This document shows, in pieces, positions 1,434 to 50,220 of a stretch of 64,000 nt of DNA. Origin of the DNA: Nanobdellota archaeon (GTDB lineage Archaea; Aenigmatarchaeota; Aenigmatarchaeia; Aenigmatarchaeales; Aenigmatarchaeaceae); the NCBI GenBank assembly GCA_018901655.1, contig JAHIEG010000004.1:4267-68266 (forward strand), read 5' to 3'. Below the pieces are notes generated by a model, which worked only from the letters and a program-made list of their open reading frames with translations, was not told the DNA's origin and did not search any database. Within the stretch, counting starts at the first letter, position 1, and the number at the start of each line of letters is the position of its first letter. Both the position numbers and the translations under genes were made by a program.

Positions 1434-1962
1434 TTTATTCCATTTCATATTTCCAATAATTGGAGCGCTTGCTGCTAAAGTTCACATTAAACATCCAATT
1501 AGAAATATTTTACTTGTTGCTGCACTTACGGTTCTAATTGATATTGATCATTTTATTGGACTAGAAAGAGCAACGTTTCACAATGTTTTTATAACAGTTC
1601 TTTTACCAATCGCGTTTATTGTGTGGGCATTTTCTCTTAAAAAGAATTTTTACATGAAAGCTTTTTCAATACTATTATTAATATTCCTTTCAAGCCATGT
1701 AATGTTAGACGTATTTACTGAACCAGGAGTTGCATTACTCTATCCATTTAGTTCTGAATATTATTCAATAGCATTTAATGTAGCAGTTCCTCTTACAAGT
1801 CAATTTGCAAGTGAAGGTTTAATCATATCATCAATTAGTATTGGGATATTATTATTTTTCATATTAGTTATACTCCCATGTTATTTCTTAGATGAGATAA
1901 TAGTTATTATGGAAAAGAAACATGAAAGTTTTTGGAAAGCTGTTAAAGATTTAAAGCATTAA
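1426..1962 (+). CDS. membrane-bound metal-dependent hydrolase-like protein (DUF457/YdjM-like), polytopic membrane
   Basis: Hydrophobic throughout with a conserved H…D…DIDH motif pattern. Start overlaps the pheT stop. Confidence 0.4.
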   Translation: MDSLFHFIFPIIGALAAKVHIKHPIRNILLVAALTVLIDIDHFIGLERATFHNVFITVLLPIAFIVWAFSLKKNFYMKAFSILLLIFLSSHVMLDVFTEPGVALLYPFSSEYYSIAFNVAVPLTSQFASEGLIISSISIGILLFFILVILPCYFLDEIIVIMEKKHESFWKAVKDLKH

Positions 1963-2752
1963 ACCATCCATCCAAATACTCTTTCAAACCAGTTTCCTTC
2001 TTTTTCTACAAACTCTGAACCAGAAATTTGTGCAGCCAATCTTCTAAACTCTTTAGATGATTTAGAACTTGGACTATTTTTTACAACTGGTATCTTACAC
2101 GCAATAGATCTTGGAATAGCAATATCTTCTGGAATAATAGAAATAATAGGTTTTTCTAACATGTGCTGAACATTTTCTATACTCATTTCATGTTTTAATC
2201 CTCTATATCGATTGATAACAATTCCTCGTACTGGTGTTCCAAATTGTTCAGCAATTTTAACAGTTTTTAATGCATCTGTTACTGCTGGAAGTTCTGGATT
2301 TGTTACAACTATAATTTCATCAGCAACGTTTATTGCAGCTAATGCTTCTTTACCAAGTCCTGCTGCTGCATCTATGATTATAATATCTGCTCTTCCTAAA
2401 AGATTAAGCATAACAGAATAAAGTTTTTCAATTCCAGTCTCTGCCATATCATCTGTCTTTAAAGAAGCTGGAATAATTTTTAATCCTGATTCGTGTTCAT
2501 ATATTGCTTCTGTTGCATCTACATCTCCTCTAAGTACGTCGTGTAAAGTTACTGGATAAAATGGTATTCCAAGATGTAGTGATAAATTTGGTGTTGTAAC
2601 ATTTGCATCTACTATTATTACTCTTTTTCCTTGTTTTATTAGAGACAATCCCAGGTTGGTTACAGTAGTGGTTTTTTCGGCCAAAAAAACAATATTTTAT
2701 TGGATTCCGACACCGCCCTTTCCCGAAATTATGCTTAGGACTCTAGTCATTT
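1959..2752 (-). pseudogene. minD: MinD/ParA-family cell-division ATPase with interrupted reading frame: a 30-nt insertion carrying an in-frame TAA sits inside the Walker A motif
   Basis: ATG at 2752 (overlapping the TGA of the upstream gene as ATGA) encodes MTRVLSIISGKGGVG, then IQ*NIVFLAE, then KTTTVTNLG… The rest of the protein is an intact MinD. The track ORF 1959..2684 starts at a TTG inside the insertion. Confidence 0.6.
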
Positions 2753-3887
2753 TTTTCTCCTCCACATAGCTGGTTTTGTTCTACTAAACTCAATTTTTTC
2801 GATTAGTTCTTTATTTCGAAATTTAGTTAAGTGTTTATACACAGCTGTATATGTCATATCTAATTGGAACATTAAGCTATAAATGGTTTTCGGTTTATCT
2901 AATTTATCATAAACTAACCACTGCCCTCTACCATCTTTTAATTTAAATTTCTGATAACTATTTAACAAATTATTTAAGCTATTTATTTTGTCTTTTGAAG
3001 TGAATCCAATTACATCTCTATATTTCACAAAATTGTCATATCCATGAATTCCTAGAACCAGCTGTATTGTTCTTCCGTTTTTACCAATTAGTATATTTTC
3101 TTGTCTTATAGAAGTAACCTCTATTCCGAGTTCTTCTATCAGTTGTCTGAGTTGGTTCATAAACTTGTAAAACGAATCCATATAATTCTCATTTTTAGAG
3201 AGTTTGAAAAGAATTTCCTTGCTACCAACCTTAACTGTAGACTCGTCGTCAAATAGTGCTCTAATAAAACTTTTCCTAACTTCCCTATTTCCACTTCTTA
3301 TCCATTTTGGGATCTCAAATTCTGTCGTAATCTTGTTTCCTACTATCGCCCCGGCCAAATTAAGTGTATCGCCTATTATTCTACTATAGCCTCTTGTTAT
3401 AACCTTATAGAAATGTTCATGGTAATGAGCGCATCTAAATATTTGTTTTATATATTTTAAAACTTCTTCTTGTAATTCATAACTACCATTAGTATACTCA
3501 AAACAGTGTGATTTACTATTGATATGACCATCACTTAAAGCGTGCCCGACTAATGATGCTAATTCTTTAGAAAGTTTTACTGGAAACTGGTCTAGTGTAA
3601 AAAAACAACCATTTTTATTATTTAATCTTATTTTTTTTAATATTATTCTTTAAAACTTTAATATCAATTTTGAGAACTTTACATACATCAAGCCATTTAT
3701 CAAATGTTATAAATCTATTTTCTTTAAGAATTTCTCCAAAAGAAGATTTGCATAAAACTTTTGTCTGAATTTCAAACTGTCTTAAAGAACCATATTTCTC
3801 ACAAATTCTATATTTAACAAGATTTCTAAACCCCTGTGTTAATTCTAAATAATAATTAAGACCTATCAAATTTTCTAGTTTTATCAT
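2749..3887 (-). pseudogene. N-terminal XRE-like HTH fused to a double-motif LAGLIDADG domain; two reading frames joined only by a +1 shift in an A8 run (plus-strand T8 at 3631..3638)
   Basis: Frame 1 (3887..3615) gives an HTH (…LRQFEIQTKVLCKSSFGEILKENRFITFDKWL…). Frame 2 (3649..2749) gives …LASLVGHALSDGHI… (LAGLIDADG motif 1) and …IRALFDDESTV… (motif 2). Paralogous to the intact gene at 49009..50220. Confidence 0.55.
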
Positions 3888-4002
3888 TAATTATCTGTAA
3901 ACAAAGTTGGGTATAAATGTTCTTTTACTCAGAAAGTAGAGAAATCACAGTAATAACTCTTGTCATAGTAAATTATGGTATAACAAAGAATAAAAAGCTT
4001 AT

Positions 4003-4311
4003 TTACGCGAGTTTCTCTAATGCTTCTTCCCAACGTCTCCTTACATCTGGTGTAAGAATTGGCATATTGTCTCTTGGTCTCCTTGGCATACAAGATTTGG
4101 TTCTATCTATACCAAGAATTTCGTCCATAAGACCTGGATCTAATACTATTTCACGCAATTCTATCAAATAATCTATATATTTTTCAACCCCGCCCATATG
4201 TTCTCTAGGAATATTTTTATACTCTTGACAGAATTCGCTAGATGTAATTTCGCGTTTTTCATATTTTTCATAAAGTTCTTTAACTTTATTGAGAGAAGGA
4301 TATTTGTCCAT
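4003..4311 (-). CDS. hypothetical protein
   Basis: 102-aa ORF with coding-like composition and no recognisable motif. Confidence 0.35.
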   Translation of the reverse strand: MDKYPSLNKVKELYEKYEKREITSSEFCQEYKNIPREHMGGVEKYIDYLIELREIVLDPGLMDEILGIDRTKSCMPRRPRDNMPILTPDVRRRWEEALEKLA

Positions 4312-4343
4312 AATACTAATTAGTAGAAAAACTATTTATAATA

Positions 4344-4616
4344 CTACTCCAATTTCCCTTCTTGAATATATTCGTCTATTATTTCAGTTAACATGCATAC
4401 TGGAATTCTAAGACTCTGATGCAAATCTGCTATATCAGATGTTCCCTTCATTTGAAAATACATCGCAACTTCTTTCTTTGCGTCTTCATAAACTATCTCT
4501 CTTTCAATAACTTCTCCTTCAATAATCTTGCCATCCTCAATAATCATTGTTTTAACCATAATACTAATTTGAAGAAAAGGGTATTTATATCCAGCCCATC
4601 CACATTGAAATTCCAA
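4344..4616 (-). CDS. hypothetical protein (true start possibly the internal MVKTMIIEDG…)
   Basis: ORF only. Confidence 0.3.
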   Translation of the reverse strand: MEFQCGWAGYKYPFLQISIMVKTMIIEDGKIIEGEVIEREIVYEDAKKEVAMYFQMKGTSDIADLHQSLRIPVCMLTEIIDEYIQEGKLE

Positions 4617-47351: not shown

Positions 47352-49034
47352 TTATCTTAACTTAACAGCAACTCCTTTCTTAAAATCTTTAATTTCTTTT
47401 TTGTTTAACAACGCCATTCCTGTTATAATTGGTTTACTATCTGAAACTATCAATACTTCTTCTCCTGGATAAATATCATCTGTTCGTTCAACAAACTTAG
47501 TAAATAATGATCTTCCACTTTTTACATGCTCAAGTATCTCTGATGGTACTTCAACTGTTTTCATCTTAATATATTTTGATCCTTCTAAGGTTGGTATAAA
47601 GAATCCATCATGTGGTCTTATTGTTCCAAGTAATTTTTTGTTTTTCCAAACTCTTCTAATCCGTCCTGTCTTTCTTGAAACTTCTGTGCTAAAACTTGTT
47701 TTAAACTTTGAACTAAATTGATATTCAATTGTTTTATTTACAATATCACTATTACTTGCTTTACCAATTGGTTCAACCTGATCTGGAACTATTGATTGTC
47801 CAAATGGATAAACTCCTTTTAATTCGATTGGTACTTTTCCAAACGGTTTCTTAACAAAATATTTTTTAGATTTAACTCCTTTAACCATTTTCTTAGCTCT
47901 TAGAACTTCTGGTCTATATTTCGATTCTTCGCCACACCATCGCAATGCGGATTTCTTCGAGATTGGTTCGTTCCCCAACAAATATTTTCTATATTTTTTG
48001 AGAACAAATTGTAACGCCTCAAGCAATGCCGGATGTGCTCTTGCTCTTTGTTGTACTAACTCCCACAAACTATTATCTCTGATTGCTTGGCGTATGGATC
48101 TTAATTCCGCGAATGTAACATAAAGATTGTGTCTTGCCAATTCTTTTACTTTTGCTGAATTTTCTAATTCTATTAATTCTTTAACCGTGTATTTTGTGCA
48201 TATCGGACATGAACATGGCAACTCTATTAATTCTTCTAATCTATGCGTTCCGTAATTTGTCATATATCTATTATCATATGCGTATAATGCGTAGGCAGCT
48301 GAATCAAAAATATCAGAACCTATGGCAACAGCCAAACTCATAAAACTAGGCAGACCCAAGCCAAATGCGTGGAGCGGCTTATTTGAAGGTATGTTCATTT
48401 TCGCTGTTATAATCTGCTGGCATACTGTTTTAAAATCATATCTTATCATCTTCGGCACAATCGAACCAATAGCATATGCATCAAAATCTAATTTGCCAAC
48501 GGATTTTGCACATTTTTTAACAAGATCAAGGTGTTCTCCGCCTTGTATCGGAGCCATCCATGATATTTTTGAATTCTCTGTTAATAATTTGCATTCTTTC
48601 GCTCTTTTAATTGTTTCGAGCACTGTTTTTTTCGCGTCATCATATTTTAAATCTCCAGATGTAACATCTAAAAAGGTTCCAATGTCTGGTTTTATTTTCT
48701 CTTGAAATTCAATTATCTCTTTATTTGTTAAATTAATAGACGACCCGAACATTGTTTGATATGCCCCACTGTCTGTCATTATCATACCGTCAAAATTCAA
48801 GAAATCATGAAGTCCTCGTTTCGAAATATCTTCCATTAACCTTGATCTTTTAATCAGATACGCATTTGTAATTATTAGTTTCGCCCCAAATTCTTTTTTT
48901 AATTCGGCTGGCGTTATTATCATTTTCCCAGGATTTATTACTACAGCCAGTTCTGGGAGCACTATGTTCCGATCACCCAAAGTTAGTTTAGATATTCGAC
49001 CTGAACAATCACGAGAGAGAAGTTCTAACATCAT
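47352..49034 (-). CDS. tgtA: archaeosine tRNA-guanine transglycosylase (ArcTGT) with C-terminal PUA domain
   Basis: TGT catalytic barrel, Zn site …CSCPICTKY…, C-terminal PUA-like segment. 560 aa. Confidence 0.9.
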   Translation of the reverse strand: MMLELLSRDCSGRISKLTLGDRNIVLPELAVVINPGKMIITPAELKKEFGAKLIITNAYLIKRSRLMEDISKRGLHDFLNFDGMIMTDSGAYQTMFGSSINLTNKEIIEFQEKIKPDIGTFLDVTSGDLKYDDAKKTVLETIKRAKECKLLTENSKISWMAPIQGGEHLDLVKKCAKSVGKLDFDAYAIGSIVPKMIRYDFKTVCQQIITAKMNIPSNKPLHAFGLGLPSFMSLAVAIGSDIFDSAAYALYAYDNRYMTNYGTHRLEELIELPCSCPICTKYTVKELIELENSAKVKELARHNLYVTFAELRSIRQAIRDNSLWELVQQRARAHPALLEALQFVLKKYRKYLLGNEPISKKSALRWCGEESKYRPEVLRAKKMVKGVKSKKYFVKKPFGKVPIELKGVYPFGQSIVPDQVEPIGKASNSDIVNKTIEYQFSSKFKTSFSTEVSRKTGRIRRVWKNKKLLGTIRPHDGFFIPTLEGSKYIKMKTVEVPSEILEHVKSGRSLFTKFVERTDDIYPGEEVLIVSDSKPIITGMALLNKKEIKDFKKGVAVKLR

Positions 49035-50220
49035 TTAACCTCCATACAGATTTTTTATTACTTCCAATCCTTTCTATTGTGCCCATTCTTTGTAGATTAT
49101 TAAGATGTTTCCGCATAGTTATTTGTGACCTATCAAATCTTATCGAAAGATCTTTACTTTTAAGAACATCTTTGTTATCAAACTCCTTTAATATTATCTG
49201 TTGAATTTCTCCTTTTTTATATTGTTTATTAAACTTACGAGAAACTAGTGCCACTATCCTTTCTTTTTTGAGCATATGAATGAAACTTACCTTTTCTTTA
49301 AATGTCTTGATTTGATATTGTCCCGTAATTCCGAAACCTAGACATATCCTATCTCTTTCTTTTCTAGATCTCATTTTTCTAACCGCATCGGGACTTACAC
49401 CCAAACCTATCAACATTTTTCTTGTATGTTCCAGAAACTCATTCAGATTTTCTGCTATTTGTGTCTTTTTATCAAAACATATTCTTATGTTATTATGTTT
49501 GTAACATACTGTTCCTTCATCATCAAATAACGCCTGTAAGAATGCTGACTTAATTTCATTTGATCCGTTCAGAATCCAATCTGGTATAAAATATTGTTTC
49601 TCTGTCTTCTTACCATCTGGTGCTCCGCATAAAATTAATAATTTACCGATAACATTCGAAAATGTTATCATAGTTTTTACTTTATTTGTAACGGTTATAA
49701 CTTCTGTTCCAGTGTTTAGATTTTTTCCGAAGACTTTGACGACATCTTTCCTAACACTTTCAACCAACTCCTTTCTTGTATTTGAATATTGAAACTGATT
49801 TGCTCTTTTACTGATATGTCCATCGCCCATCGCATGAGCAACAAGTCTAGCCAAAGCAGCTGATGATACTACTGGCAATTTAACAGGAATCAGTTGATGA
49901 TGCTTACCGCGCATATATTTTATATTTTTCTCAATATCAGAATATGGTATTTCTGATAGCTTTGATATGTTTCTAATCATATGCGAACTAGCTAAAGCCT
50001 CTTCTCTTATTCCTTTTCTGTTTCGAAAGCCATTTTTTATTTCTATCACATGAGAATCGTGCATATTAAATATCTTGGCCAGTTTTTTCCACTCTCCTCC
50101 AGCGTTATATCTTGCTCTGTCAAATAGTTTTTTTCTGAATTCGTCGTTGATGCCGATAAAAATACTGTTTGGTAAATTATCTAATGATATTAAATTCGTG
50201 CGATCCGTCATATAAATCAC
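49009..50220 (-). CDS. free-standing HTH + double-LAGLIDADG + C-terminal winged-helix protein (intact paralogue of 2749..3887)
   Basis: N-terminal …GEWKKLAKIFNMHDSHVIEIKNGFR… HTH, …LARLVAHAMGDGHIS… (motif 1), …LQALFDDEGTV… (motif 2), C-terminal …HLNNLQRMGTIERIGSNKKSVWRL…. Confidence 0.65.
   Translation of the reverse strand: MIYMTDRTNLISLDNLPNSIFIGINDEFRKKLFDRARYNAGGEWKKLAKIFNMHDSHVIEIKNGFRNRKGIREEALASSHMIRNISKLSEIPYSDIEKNIKYMRGKHHQLIPVKLPVVSSAALARLVAHAMGDGHISKRANQFQYSNTRKELVESVRKDVVKVFGKNLNTGTEVITVTNKVKTMITFSNVIGKLLILCGAPDGKKTEKQYFIPDWILNGSNEIKSAFLQALFDDEGTVCYKHNNIRICFDKKTQIAENLNEFLEHTRKMLIGLGVSPDAVRKMRSRKERDRICLGFGITGQYQIKTFKEKVSFIHMLKKERIVALVSRKFNKQYKKGEIQQIILKEFDNKDVLKSKDLSIRFDRSQITMRKHLNNLQRMGTIERIGSNKKSVWRLNDVRTSLS

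What the first reader, a model, noticed from the sequence alone, without database searches (positions are those of the whole stretch)
2641..2760. MinD P-loop interrupted by a 30-nt hairpin-forming insertion containing an in-frame TAA
The minD ATG (2752) overlaps the upstream gene's TGA (ATGA), and everything but the P-loop is a well-conserved MinD. Exactly between GKGGVG and KTTT sits ATCCAATAAAATATTGTTTTTTTGGCCGAA (30 nt, in frame, TAA included). The sense strand can fold as TCGG-AAT-CCAA-loop-TTGG-CCGA: two 4-bp helices separated by a 3-nt bulge. That resembles half of an archaeal bulge-helix-bulge splice substrate, though no canonical second bulge is evident. Options are a recent pseudogenising insertion, a miniature intron-like element, or an assembly artefact. 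A BHB-type intron in a protein-coding gene would be notable, since such introns are known in very few archaeal mRNAs.
Basis: partly seen in the sequence, partly recalled or inferred. Interest (0 to 1): 0.65.

Follow-up and report, generated by a model that had tools for sequence, protein, structure and literature searches.

The report
Tiny archaeal intron splitting minD P-loop

Summary
minD on the minus strand (ATG 2750, stop 1959) carries a clean 30-nt insert between GKGGVG and KTTT. Relatives at 83-87% identity lack it, and other assemblies of this genome carry it.

[quoted passage not shown] The geometry is in fact complete: GGUG|UCGG|AA^U|CCAA...UUGG|CCGA|AA^A|AACC. Cutting after the second nucleotide of each bulge removes 2704..2675 and restores GGA AAA ACC (G-K-T).

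A second minD (L006, 63% identical protein) has a homologous intron of 32 nt at the same site. Unspliced it shifts the frame; the same cutting rule restores GVGKTTT. The helix-forming ends are conserved and the loop has diverged. dN/dS shows no relaxed selection.

Both intron-bearing genes lie directly downstream of the two most closely related members of an HTH-LAGLIDADG-wHTH family. This family sits next to GKGGVGK-type ATPase genes and other housekeeping genes. The first 60 minD codons look like a co-conversion tract.

Best reading: a BHB mini-intron spliced by EndA and RtcB (confidence 0.78), possibly mobilised with a free-standing homing endonuclease (about 0.45). Splicing itself is untested.

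The parts
2705..2750 (-). minD exon 1 (46 nt): ATG...GGC GGT GTC GGA A. It encodes MTRVLSIISGKGGVG plus the first base of the Lys codon.
   Evidence: Translation. BHB cut rule. Alignment with intron-less relatives.
2675..2704 (-). Predicted BHB mini-intron, 30 nt: UCCAAUAAAAUAUUGUUUUUUUGGCCGAAA. It is in phase 1 inside the Lys codon of GKGGVGK.
   Evidence: A homologous 32-nt intron lies at L006 4404..4435.
1959..2674 (-). minD exon 2: AA ACC ACT ACT... to the stop. It is otherwise an intact archaeal MinD.
   Evidence: dN/dS of 0.10-0.17 against relatives.
2707..2710 (-). Central 4-bp BHB helix, 5' strand (UCGG, exonic). It pairs with CCGA at 2677..2680.
   Evidence: Identical in L006.
2677..2680 (-). 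Central 4-bp BHB helix, 3' strand (CCGA, intronic).
2704..2706 (-). 5' splice-site bulge AA^U. The predicted cut is between 2705 and 2704.
   Evidence: Rule: cleavage between the 2nd and 3rd bulge nucleotide (PMC2738675). Polarity from the synthetic BHB duplex in PMC12397907.
2674..2676 (-). 3' splice-site bulge AA^A. The predicted cut is between 2675 and 2674.
   Evidence: Same rule. Splicing gives GGA AAA ACC.
2681..2703 (-). Intron-internal outer helix h' (CCAA 2703..2700 with UUGG 2684..2681) and a distal stem-loop (AAAAU 2698..2694 with GUUUU 2690..2686).
   Evidence: MFE folds. In L006 the helix is CCGAU/AUUGG and the distal stem is AAGC/GCUU. That is one wobble change and one compensatory change.
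2670..2714 (-). Span holding the exon-exon outer helix h: GGUG (2714..2711) against AACC (2673..2670). Three of four positions pair, with a G.A mismatch next to the bulge.
   Evidence: This helix is absent in L006, which therefore has a relaxed HBh' form.
2747..3887 (-). HTH - double LAGLIDADG - winged-HTH gene (homing-endonuclease-like). Its stop overlaps the minD ATG. Here it is split by a +1 frameshift in an A8 run (3631..3638) into an 89-aa ORF and a 203-aa-called ORF.
   Evidence: Homologues are 377-390 aa and uninterrupted.
2751..4584 (-). About 1.8 kb present here between the SfLAP-like gene and minD. It is absent from relative L003, where the two genes are adjacent. It carries a 90-aa ORF, a 102-aa ORF and the LAGLIDADG gene.
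   Evidence: Gene orders. tblastn.

Best explanation
The 30 nt at 2704..2675 (minus strand) are a miniature archaeal bulge-helix-bulge (BHB) intron inside the Lys codon of the deviant Walker A box (GKGGVG|K) of minD.

**Proposed mechanism**
- In the pre-mRNA, the last exon bases UCGG pair with intron bases CCGA to form the 4-bp central helix.
- AA^U and AA^A form the two 3-nt bulges.
- CCAA/UUGG plus a distal stem close the intron.
- GGU/ACC weakly closes the exon side.
- The tRNA splicing endonuclease EndA cuts after the second nucleotide of each bulge, and RtcB ligase joins the exons.
- The result is ...GGU GUC GGA AAA ACC ACU..., that is, an intact MinD P-loop.

**Shown here**: the geometry, the exact restoration of the ORF, a homologous 32-nt intron in a second lineage, and purifying selection on the host gene.

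**Inferred**: that EndA and RtcB of this organism actually carry out the splicing.

**Secondary inference, less certain (about 0.45)**: the intron travels with the adjacent free-standing LAGLIDADG endonuclease gene. That enzyme would cut intron-less P-loop coding sequence, and the intron would interrupt its recognition site. This is the 'collaborative homing' arrangement.
For: 1. **Geometry.** Each strand reads outer helix / 4-nt central helix / 3-nt bulge / outer helix. This matches the solved BHB substrate in PMC12397907. Cutting between bulge nucleotides 2 and 3 (PMC2738675) removes exactly 30 nt and restores GKGGVGKTTT.
2. **Chance.** Random or shuffled inserts at this site reach an ORF-restoring HBh' motif in 272-292 of 400,000 trials for the window and 171-239 of 400,000 for L006.
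3. **Second lineage.** L006 minD (63% amino-acid identity) has a 32-nt insert at the same phase-1 site. Unspliced it shifts the frame and brings a TAG into frame. The same rule (UCGG|GA^U ... CCGA|AA^A) restores GVGKTTT.
4. **Conservation pattern.** The two introns share their helix-forming ends (TCCRAT...TTGGCCGAAA) but have diverged loops. They differ by one wobble and one compensatory pair change.
5. **Intact host genes.** Both are intact over about 240 codons. Window versus relatives gives dN/dS 0.10-0.17, the same as among intron-less relatives (0.10-0.15). Window-specific changes are 4 non-synonymous to 9 synonymous. L006 versus its nearest relative gives 0.08.
6. **Not an assembly accident.** The allele is on record from NCBI, ENA, Logan and JGI assemblies.
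7. **Precedent.** BHB introns in cbf5 mRNA use relaxed motifs too. DPANN EndA enzymes carry loops linked to many disrupted tRNA genes, which that paper reads as broadened substrate range (PMC5829648).
8. **Mobility add-on.**
   - The LAGLIDADG genes of the two intron-bearing loci are each other's closest relatives (69% identity; the next is 56%).
   - Each minD has closer intron-less relatives.
   - Relatives L002, L003 and L004 lack both the endonuclease gene and the intron.
   - In minD codons 1-60 the window sides with L006 at 8 of 19 informative sites, against 3 of 115 in the rest of the gene (Fisher p = 5e-6).
   - Acidic residues in both LAGLIDADG motifs (D119, E215; read here as the catalytic positions) are invariant.
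   - The predicted fold matches intein and archaeal-intron homing endonucleases.
Against: - There are no transcript data. Splicing is inferred from sequence only.
- The outer exon helix h is imperfect in the window (G.A next to the bulge) and absent in L006. The motif is therefore the relaxed HBh' type, and the substrate range of this organism's EndA is unknown.
- Loose BHB-like motifs are very common in this 30.5% GC sequence: about 500 per strand under the stricter definition and about 3,500 under the relaxed one.
- Fold energies are not exceptional (z -0.9 to -2.3).
- Only two independent introns were found, so covariation rests on two changed pairs.
- The intron contains a U7 run, which could act as an archaeal terminator signal.
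- EndA and RtcB were not found in the 64-kb window.
- Against the mobility add-on:
  - The endonuclease gene in the window is frameshifted.
  - Several endonuclease-positive loci have no intron.
  - The protein's architecture also resembles the domesticated regulator WhiA.
Confidence: 0.78

Rival explanations
1. Unspliced, gene-killing insertion. The insert is a scar or an 'immunity' insertion that destroys the neighbouring endonuclease's recognition site. minD is a recent pseudogene, or is made only as a P-loop-less protein from the TTG at 2684. It persists because it is linked to a selfish endonuclease gene or because MinD is dispensable.
For: - The insert has an in-frame TAA and splits an essential motif.
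- Gene callers annotate a truncated 241-aa product.
- The insert is confined to loci that carry the endonuclease gene.
- The endonuclease gene itself is decaying in the window.
- If disruptions were recent, the ORFs would still look intact.
Against: - Two homologous inserts of different length (30 and 32 nt) keep exactly the BHB-forming ends while their loops have diverged. A scar under no selection would not show this pattern.
- Both restore the ORF only under the BHB cut rule (about 7e-4 and 5e-4 by chance).
- There are no further disabling mutations, and dN/dS is as low as in intron-less relatives.
- The divergence between the introns and between the endonucleases (69% amino-acid identity) implies long residence in functional-looking genes.
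Confidence: 0.12
2. Assembly or sequencing artefact: a chimeric or hairpin-induced insertion that is absent from the real genome.
For: - The insert is hairpin-forming and AT-rich with a homopolymer run.
- The source is a metagenome-assembled genome.
- It was not possible to check whether the several assemblies come from independent samples.
Against: - The identical allele occurs in contigs of 69 kb (NCBI), 55 kb (ENA, MEGAHIT), 12.7 kb (JGI) and 5-10 kb (Logan).
- A homologous but non-identical insert occurs in a different organism and run (L006, SRR22315509).
- The insert does not recur in the window and is not a copy of nearby sequence.
Confidence: 0.03
3. Programmed translational bypassing. 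The ribosome hops over the insert, as in phage T4 gene 60 or the mitochondrial 'byp' elements.
For: - A short hairpin-forming insert sits in a conserved coding region.
- A stop codon follows shortly after a GGA codon.
- T4 gene 60 also takes off from GGA (from memory).
Against: - Take-off and landing codons do not match: GGA versus GAA in the window and GGG versus GAA in L006.
- The stop codon is not adjacent to the take-off codon.
- The conserved parts of the two inserts are the BHB helices and bulges.
- No such mechanism is known in archaea (own knowledge).
Confidence: 0.02
4. The intron is real, but the neighbouring LAGLIDADG protein is not a homing endonuclease. It would be a domesticated WhiA-like DNA-binding regulator of the downstream gene, and the intron's link to it would be coincidental or regulatory.
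For: - The architecture of a LAGLIDADG scaffold plus HTH domains resembles WhiA (Foldseek 3hyi, E 2e-7, and 8dy9).
- The gene is always co-oriented with, and overlaps, the downstream gene like an operon partner.
- Many endonuclease-positive loci have no intron.
- The family is large and keeps a constant length: 190 clusters at E <= 1e-30.
Against: - The acidic residues of both LAGLIDADG motifs are invariant (D119, E215), whereas WhiA has lost them (own knowledge).
- The best structural and profile matches are intein homing-endonuclease domains.
- Presence is patchy among close relatives at a conserved locus.
- Family members sit beside unrelated housekeeping genes: minD, Fer4-ATPase, arcTGT, Hjc, proteasome, topoisomerase and GlmS.
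- minD shows a co-conversion-like mosaic.
- A likely intein occupies the same P-loop site in another minD.
Confidence: 0.35

Closest known systems
cbf5 pre-mRNA introns of Crenarchaeota (Watanabe 2002; Yokobori 2009, PMC2738675)
   Same: - A short BHB-type intron interrupts a protein-coding ORF.
- The motif is relaxed rather than strict.
- The predicted cuts between bulge nucleotides 2 and 3 coincide with the exon borders.
- Distribution among relatives is patchy.
   Different: - The host gene differs (minD, inside the Walker A box) and so does the lineage (DPANN 'Nanoarchaeota', not Crenarchaeota).
- It lies next to a LAGLIDADG gene.
- Splicing has been shown for cbf5 and is only predicted here.
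- As of 2020, cbf5 was the only ORF-interrupting case reported (PMC7714728).
Archaeal rRNA and tRNA BHB introns, including rRNA introns that encode LAGLIDADG endonucleases (I-DmoI, I-Tsp061I)
   Same: - The same splice-site architecture and presumably the same enzymes (EndA, RtcB).
- Association of a BHB intron with a LAGLIDADG endonuclease. The neighbour's predicted fold matches I-Tsp061I and I-DmoI.
   Different: - Here the intron is only 30-32 nt and cannot encode anything. The LAGLIDADG gene is free-standing and ends 46 nt upstream of the intron.
- The host is an mRNA, not a stable RNA.
Collaborative homing: free-standing F-CphI plus the psbA group I intron in cyanophage S-PM2 (Zeng et al. 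2009; PMC6083498)
   Same: - An ORF-less intron in a conserved gene lies directly beside a free-standing endonuclease gene.
- The intron would split the enzyme's target and protect the host copy.
- The two elements are inherited together.
   Different: - This is a BHB (protein-spliced) intron rather than a self-splicing group I intron.
- The setting is an archaeal chromosome rather than a phage.
- The enzyme is a LAGLIDADG type rather than an Endo VII-like type.
- Cleavage specificity is untested here.
P-loop inteins with LAGLIDADG endonuclease domains
   Same: - The same kind of target, the codons of a Walker A box.
- The neighbour's LAGLIDADG core is most similar to intein endonuclease domains.
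- A likely intein sits 2 nt from the intron site in another minD (L103).
   Different: - The element in the window is removed at the RNA level, not the protein level. It contains a stop codon and is only 30 nt long.
WhiA (DUF199), a domesticated LAGLIDADG plus HTH transcription factor
   Same: The neighbouring protein shares the overall plan of a double LAGLIDADG scaffold followed by a C-terminal HTH.
   Different: - The acidic residues in both motifs (read here as catalytic) are retained.
- It has an extra N-terminal HTH.
- Distribution is patchy.
- It is archaeal (DPANN), not Gram-positive bacterial.

Membership tests
Archaeal BHB (EndA-dependent) intron | A 4-bp central helix with a 3-nt bulge 3' of each of its strands, on opposite strands. 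| tested here: met
   Window: UCGG/CCGA with AAU and AAA. Polarity was checked against the solved substrate. L006 has the same helix with GAU and AAA.
Archaeal BHB (EndA-dependent) intron | Both outer helices (h and h') close the bulges, giving the strict hBHBh' form. | tested here: inconclusive
   h' is good: CCAA/UUGG in the window and CCGAU/AUUGG in L006. h has 3 of 4 pairs with a G.A mismatch next to the bulge in the window, and is absent in L006. Both therefore qualify only as the relaxed HBh' form.
Archaeal BHB (EndA-dependent) intron | Cleavage between bulge nucleotides 2 and 3 yields a functional product. | tested here: met
   Removal of 30 nt (window) or 32 nt (L006) restores GKGGVGKTTT in frame. 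The chance rate is about 5-7e-4.
Archaeal BHB (EndA-dependent) intron | Excision by EndA and ligation by RtcB, shown in vivo or in vitro. | not testable with these tools
   No transcript data are available. No spliced-form protein is in the protein collection: the clusters of P0001 and P0141 hold only truncated calls.
Archaeal BHB (EndA-dependent) intron | The host encodes EndA and RtcB. | not tested
   Neither was found among the 40 larger ORFs of the window scanned with Pfam. The rest of the genome was not available. Both enzymes are expected in archaea generally (own knowledge).
Free-standing LAGLIDADG homing endonuclease | A double LAGLIDADG fold with the acidic residue retained in both motifs. 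| tested here: met
   GDG (D119) and FDDE (E215) are invariant in 18 homologues. The AF2 model has pLDDT 90 and its top Foldseek hits are intein and archaeal-intron endonucleases.
Free-standing LAGLIDADG homing endonuclease | Optional presence at an otherwise conserved locus, next to a conserved gene. | tested here: met
   Present in the window, L006, L008 and L100. Absent from L002, L003 and L004 at the same SfLAP/minD/YdjM/PheT locus.
Free-standing LAGLIDADG homing endonuclease | Site-specific cleavage of alleles that lack the endonuclease gene. | not testable with these tools
   This needs an enzyme assay. The window copy is frameshifted in an A8 run.
Collaborative homing (endonuclease plus ORF-less intron) | The intron insertion site lies inside the endonuclease's recognition site and blocks cleavage. 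| not testable with these tools
   Indirect evidence only:
- The intron occurs only beside the two most closely related endonuclease genes.
- minD codons 1-60 show a co-conversion-like mosaic (p = 5e-6).
Programmed translational bypass (T4 gene 60 / byp elements) | Matched take-off and landing codons flanking the gap. | tested here: not met
   GGA versus GAA in the window and GGG versus GAA in L006.
Pseudogene | Further disabling mutations or relaxed selection. | tested here: not met
   There are no other stops or frameshifts. dN/dS is 0.10-0.17, equal to that of intron-less relatives. Power is limited if the insertion is recent.

The most novel reading that the evidence does not exclude
A miniature BHB intron in an archaeal protein-coding gene forms a two-part mobile element with a free-standing LAGLIDADG homing endonuclease. 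The endonuclease targets the codons of the deviant Walker A box (GKGGVGK) of MinD-superfamily ATPases. The intron splits that target and protects its carrier, and the two spread together by gene conversion among DPANN archaea. The same P-loop site is also used by an intein. This would be the first 'collaborative homing' system built on a protein-spliced (EndA) intron, and the first route shown for BHB introns to invade mRNAs.
Probability: 0.4. Interest if true: 0.88.

Novelty: new variant of a known kind. Interest (0 to 1): 0.8.

Why it matters
**Rarity.** Introns in archaeal protein-coding genes are almost unknown. Up to 2020 the literature lists only cbf5 in Crenarchaeota, plus one 5'-UTR intron in Haloferax (PMC7714728).

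**What this case would add.**
- A second host gene and a distant lineage (DPANN).
- An intron sitting in the catalytic P-loop, so that the protein cannot work unless the mRNA is spliced.
- A clean test of mRNA splicing by the tRNA splicing machinery.

**Annotation consequence.** Gene callers mis-annotate such genes as truncated. NCBI lists a 241-aa 'MinD'. Similar mini-introns may therefore be hidden elsewhere.

**Origin of mRNA introns.** If the link with the neighbouring LAGLIDADG gene is real, it gives a mechanism for how BHB introns enter mRNAs. It would also extend 'collaborative homing' from phage group I introns to archaeal chromosomes.

**A new endonuclease family.** It points to a large, undescribed family of free-standing HTH-LAGLIDADG-wHTH genes parked at the 5' ends of housekeeping genes.

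Tried and rejected
- **Repeated or mobile element.** No other copy of the 30-mer exists in the window with up to 3 mismatches. Shared k-mers are only AT-rich chance matches.
- **Reversed BHB polarity.** I first drew the BHB with the bulges 5' of the central helix and concluded that no frame-restoring BHB existed. Checking the solved substrate sequence showed the polarity was the other way round.
- **Motif scans for more introns in the window.** These were useless. There were about 500 hits per strand under the stricter definition and about 3,500 under the relaxed one. Of the relaxed hits, 212 'merge ORFs' by chance. Whether other mini-introns exist in this genome remains open.
- **A second intron at the break in the LAGLIDADG gene.** Rejected. 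Comparison with P0122 shows a 1-nt frameshift in an A8 run.
- **Search for further introns.**
  - A viral-contig pattern scan gave 0 hits.
  - Among 25 GKGGxG boxes in about 100 fetched loci, only the window (identical to L001) and L006 are interrupted.
  - The look-up of P0149 failed. P0149 and P0150 turned out to be the same proteins with Leu as the first residue.
- **Intein in L103.** No Pfam, NCBIfam or PDB support for the C-terminal intein motif. It rests on the motif ...VYDFQISEEGAHFIHGTGIVISN|T, read by eye.
- **Rfam.** Only the two tRNAs reach threshold. They have no introns.
- **EndA and RtcB.** Not found among the Pfam-annotated ORFs of the window.
Full report
**1. What is there**

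The window is 30.5% GC. Its proteins match a 'Nanoarchaeota archaeon' MAG, a DPANN archaeon. The truncated MinD is MBU3904701.1 on a 69-kb contig.

minD lies on the minus strand. It overlaps the upstream ORF's TGA as ATGA, and its stop is at 1959. The translation reads MTRVLSIISGKGGVG-IQ*NIVFLAE-KTTTV... The 30-mer ATCCAATAAAATATTGTTTTTTTGGCCGAA occupies 2705..2676 and is unique in the window.

With the insert removed, the protein is a full-length archaeal MinD (Pfam CbiA, ParA, AAA_31). Its closest relatives are uninterrupted 253-aa proteins at 73-87% identity. DNA alignment with two of them (L002, L003) shows a clean 30-nt gap exactly at GG|AAAAAC.

The interrupted allele is identical in an ENA MEGAHIT contig (L001). 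Its truncated product is recorded from NCBI, ENA, Logan and JGI assemblies. I could not check whether these come from independent samples.

**2. The hairpin is a complete BHB once polarity is right**

I first reached the same negative result with the bulges drawn on the wrong side of the central helix.

The solved BHB substrate quoted in PMC12397907 is 5'-AAUCGACC-GACC-AdUA-GCUGCA-3' paired with 5'-AAUGCAGC-GGUC-AAA-GGUCG-3'. It shows that each strand runs outer helix, then the 4-nt central helix, then the 3-nt bulge, then outer helix. Cleavage falls between bulge nucleotides 2 and 3. PMC2738675 says the same for the cbf5 introns.

Applied to the window, the two strands read GGUG|UCGG|AA^U|CCAA ... 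UUGG|CCGA|AA^A|AACC.
- The central helix is UCGG/CCGA (2710..2707 with 2680..2677).
- The bulges are 2706..2704 and 2676..2674.
- The intron-internal helix CCAA/UUGG is extended by AAAAU/GUUUU.
- The exon-exon helix is GGU/ACC after a G.A mismatch.

This is the minimum-free-energy fold. The two predicted cuts remove 2704..2675, exactly 30 nt. They join ...GUC GGA A to AA ACC ACU..., which gives G-K-T.

**3. How much is chance?**

BHB-like motifs as such are cheap in this AT-rich sequence. There are about 500 per strand under a fairly strict definition and about 3,500 under the relaxed one. Fold energies are unremarkable (z -0.9 to -2.3).

What is improbable is the register. With the exons fixed, random or shuffled 30-mers at this site give an HBh' motif whose cuts restore the protein in 272-292 of 400,000 trials, about 7e-4.

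**4. A second, independent intron**

The upstream LAGLIDADG gene led to locus L006 (Logan SRR22315509). Its minD is only 63% identical in protein to the window's. Gene callers also truncate it, to 242 aa.

Its sequence is ...GGC GGC GUC GGG A^UCCGAUUUAAGCAAUAGCUUUAUUGGCCGAA^A AAC AAC C.... Here the insert is 32 nt, so without splicing the gene is frameshifted. The same rule (UCGG|GA^U|CCGA...UUGG|CCGA|AA^A) removes 4404..4435 and restores GVGKTTTVTNLG in frame. The chance rate for this is 4-6e-4.

The two introns share their ends (UCCRAU ... UUGGCCGAAA), while the 13-15-nt middle has diverged. RNAalifold recovers the central helix, the bulge, h' and a distal stem. One pair shows an A-U to G.U change and one shows a compensatory A-U to G-C change. 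In L006 the exon-exon helix h is missing, so the family is of the relaxed HBh' kind. The cbf5 introns are also of this kind.

**5. The host genes look functional**

Neither minD has any other defect.
- dN/dS of the window against L002, L003 and L004 is 0.10-0.17. Among those intron-less genes it is 0.10-0.15.
- Changes unique to the window lineage are 4 non-synonymous to 9 synonymous.
- L006 against its nearest relative gives 0.08, with synonymous sites saturated.

The diverged intron loops, and the 69% identity of the linked endonucleases, imply that this intron lineage has long lived in genes under purifying selection. That fits a spliced, phenotypically silent element and not a scar.

Translational bypassing is unlikely because take-off and landing codons do not match (GGA or GGG against GAA).

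**6. The neighbour: a homing-endonuclease-like gene**

The ORF whose stop overlaps the minD ATG belongs to a 377-390-aa family. In the window it is split by a 1-nt frameshift in an A8 run (3631..3638). This produces the 89-aa ORF 3618..3887 and the C-terminal part that is called as 203 aa.

The family has an N-terminal HTH, two LAGLIDADG domains and a C-terminal MarR/ArsR-type winged helix. The acidic residues of both LAGLIDADG motifs are invariant (D119, E215).

An AlphaFold model (pLDDT 90) matches, in order:
- intein homing-endonuclease domains best (TliVMA, PI-SceI);
- then WhiA;
- then the archaeal intron enzymes I-Tsp061I and I-DmoI.

NCBIfam profiles of intein-containing RtcB and RFC also hit its core. 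The family is large, with 190 clusters at E <= 1e-30.

**7. Where the family sits**

In every close homologue whose downstream DNA could be read, the gene ends at, overlapping, or within about 10 nt of the start of a deviant-Walker-A ATPase gene.
- Next to minD: window, L006, L007/L008, L100/L101, L014/L015.
- Next to a Fer4-containing MinD-superfamily ATPase: L010, L012, L016-L018, L020, L099, L102.

More distant members sit just upstream of Hjc, proteasome, topoisomerase, GlmS, radical-SAM and class I aminoacyl-tRNA synthetase genes. These genes were identified by eye from their N-terminal sequences.

A 30%-identical paralogue in this very window (50220..49009) overlaps the start of arcTGT.

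Close relatives of the window at the same SfLAP-minD-YdjM-PheT locus lack the gene. This is the distribution expected of free-standing homing endonuclease genes. A WhiA-like regulator remains possible.

**8. Link between intron and endonuclease gene**

- Only 3 of 25 GKGGxG boxes in all fetched loci are interrupted: the window, its duplicate L001, and L006.
- Their LAGLIDADG genes are each other's closest relatives (69% identity; the next is 56%).
- Each minD has closer intron-less relatives.
- At sites where L002, L003 and L004 agree and L006 differs, the window sides with L006 at 8 of 19 sites in codons 1-60, but at 3 of 115 sites in codons 61-254 (Fisher p = 4.7e-6). The shared sites include the GUC codon that builds the central helix. 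This looks like a co-conversion tract around the intron.
- L103, a minD 77% identical to L006's, continues upstream of TTTVTNLG as ...VYDFQISEEGAHFIHGTGIVISN|T. By eye this is an intein C-terminus inserted after the P-loop Lys, 2 nt from the intron site. No profile supports it.

Together these observations suggest that the P-loop codons are a homing site. They also suggest that the intron and the endonuclease gene move as a unit, as in the F-CphI/psbA 'collaborative homing' case (PMC6083498). This part is inference. Several endonuclease-positive loci have no intron, and the window's copy is frameshifted.

**9. Comparison with what is known, and verdict**

ORF-interrupting BHB introns were known only in crenarchaeal cbf5, plus a 5'-UTR intron in Haloferax (PMC7714728). 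No paper in the searched library links DPANN to mRNA BHB introns. DPANN EndA enzymes carry an extra loop associated with many disrupted tRNA genes (PMC5829648), so a relaxed substrate is plausible.

I rate a spliced BHB mini-intron at 0.78, and the endonuclease-linked mobility at about 0.4-0.5. Pseudogene, artefact and bypassing together take the remainder. Nothing here demonstrates splicing. The junction-read and EndA-cleavage tests listed under next steps would decide it.

Noticed in passing
window 3618..3887 and 2747..3610 (minus strand); A8 run at 3631..3638: The LAGLIDADG-HTH gene upstream of minD is split by a single-base frameshift in an A8 run, compared with its intact 379-aa homologue P0122. 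The same split is called in the ENA and JGI assemblies. It could be decay of a fixed homing endonuclease gene, a homopolymer error, or programmed slippage.
   Followed up: partly
window 49009..50220 (minus strand), overlapping the start of 47352..49034: A second, intact paralogue of the same HTH-LAGLIDADG-wHTH family (30% identity to P0122, E 1e-36). It overlaps the first 26 nt of the archaeosine tRNA-guanine transglycosylase gene. No interruption was seen in that gene.
   Followed up: partly
L103 1..350 (ENA ERZ23499535 scaffold_48315): A minD 77% identical to L006's. It has non-MinD sequence ending ...VYDFQISEEGAHFIHGTGIVISN immediately before TTTVTNLG. By eye this looks like an intein C-terminus inserted after the P-loop Lys, 2 nt from the intron site. 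The contig is cut, an ATGA frame change lies upstream, and no Pfam, NCBIfam or PDB match supports it.
   Followed up: partly
L021-L097 (e.g. L033, L045, L052, L056, L062, L070, L086, L093): More distant members of the LAGLIDADG family lie just upstream of, often overlapping, the starts of unrelated housekeeping genes: Hjc resolvase, proteasome subunit, topoisomerase, GlmS, radical-SAM enzymes and a class I aminoacyl-tRNA synthetase. The genes were identified by eye from their N-terminal sequences. The family has about 190 clusters at E <= 1e-30.
   Followed up: partly
L010, L012, L016-L018, L020, L099, L102: Close homologues of the LAGLIDADG gene sit next to a different ATPase family. These are MinD-superfamily proteins with an inserted ferredoxin domain, in clusters with DUF5320, NifB-like and cation-efflux genes. 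They share only the GKGGVGK box with minD, as if the endonuclease follows that nucleotide motif.
   Followed up: partly
window 2570..2750 (minD codons 1-60): This stretch of minD is mosaic. At informative sites it often matches the distant L006 allele rather than the close relatives (8:11, against 3:112 in the rest of the gene). Codons 40-60 are 93% identical in DNA to L006.
   Followed up: yes
window 2684..2690 (minus strand): The intron contains a U7 run, which in archaea could act as a transcription termination signal inside minD. It is not conserved in the L006 intron.
   Followed up: no
window 3352..3358 and 2678..2684: The 7-mer TTGGCCG (minus strand) occurs only twice in 64 kb. One copy forms the 3' end of the intron and the other lies inside the LAGLIDADG gene about 670 nt away. 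This is probably chance, since about one occurrence is expected.
   Followed up: no
   Followed up: no
L004 (SRR22315506) and L006 (SRR22315509); L001 (ERZ27247124) and L007 (ERZ27247703): Intron-less, endonuclease-less minD alleles and intron- or endonuclease-bearing alleles come from runs with neighbouring accession numbers. Donor and recipient populations may therefore co-occur in the same study sites.
   Followed up: no
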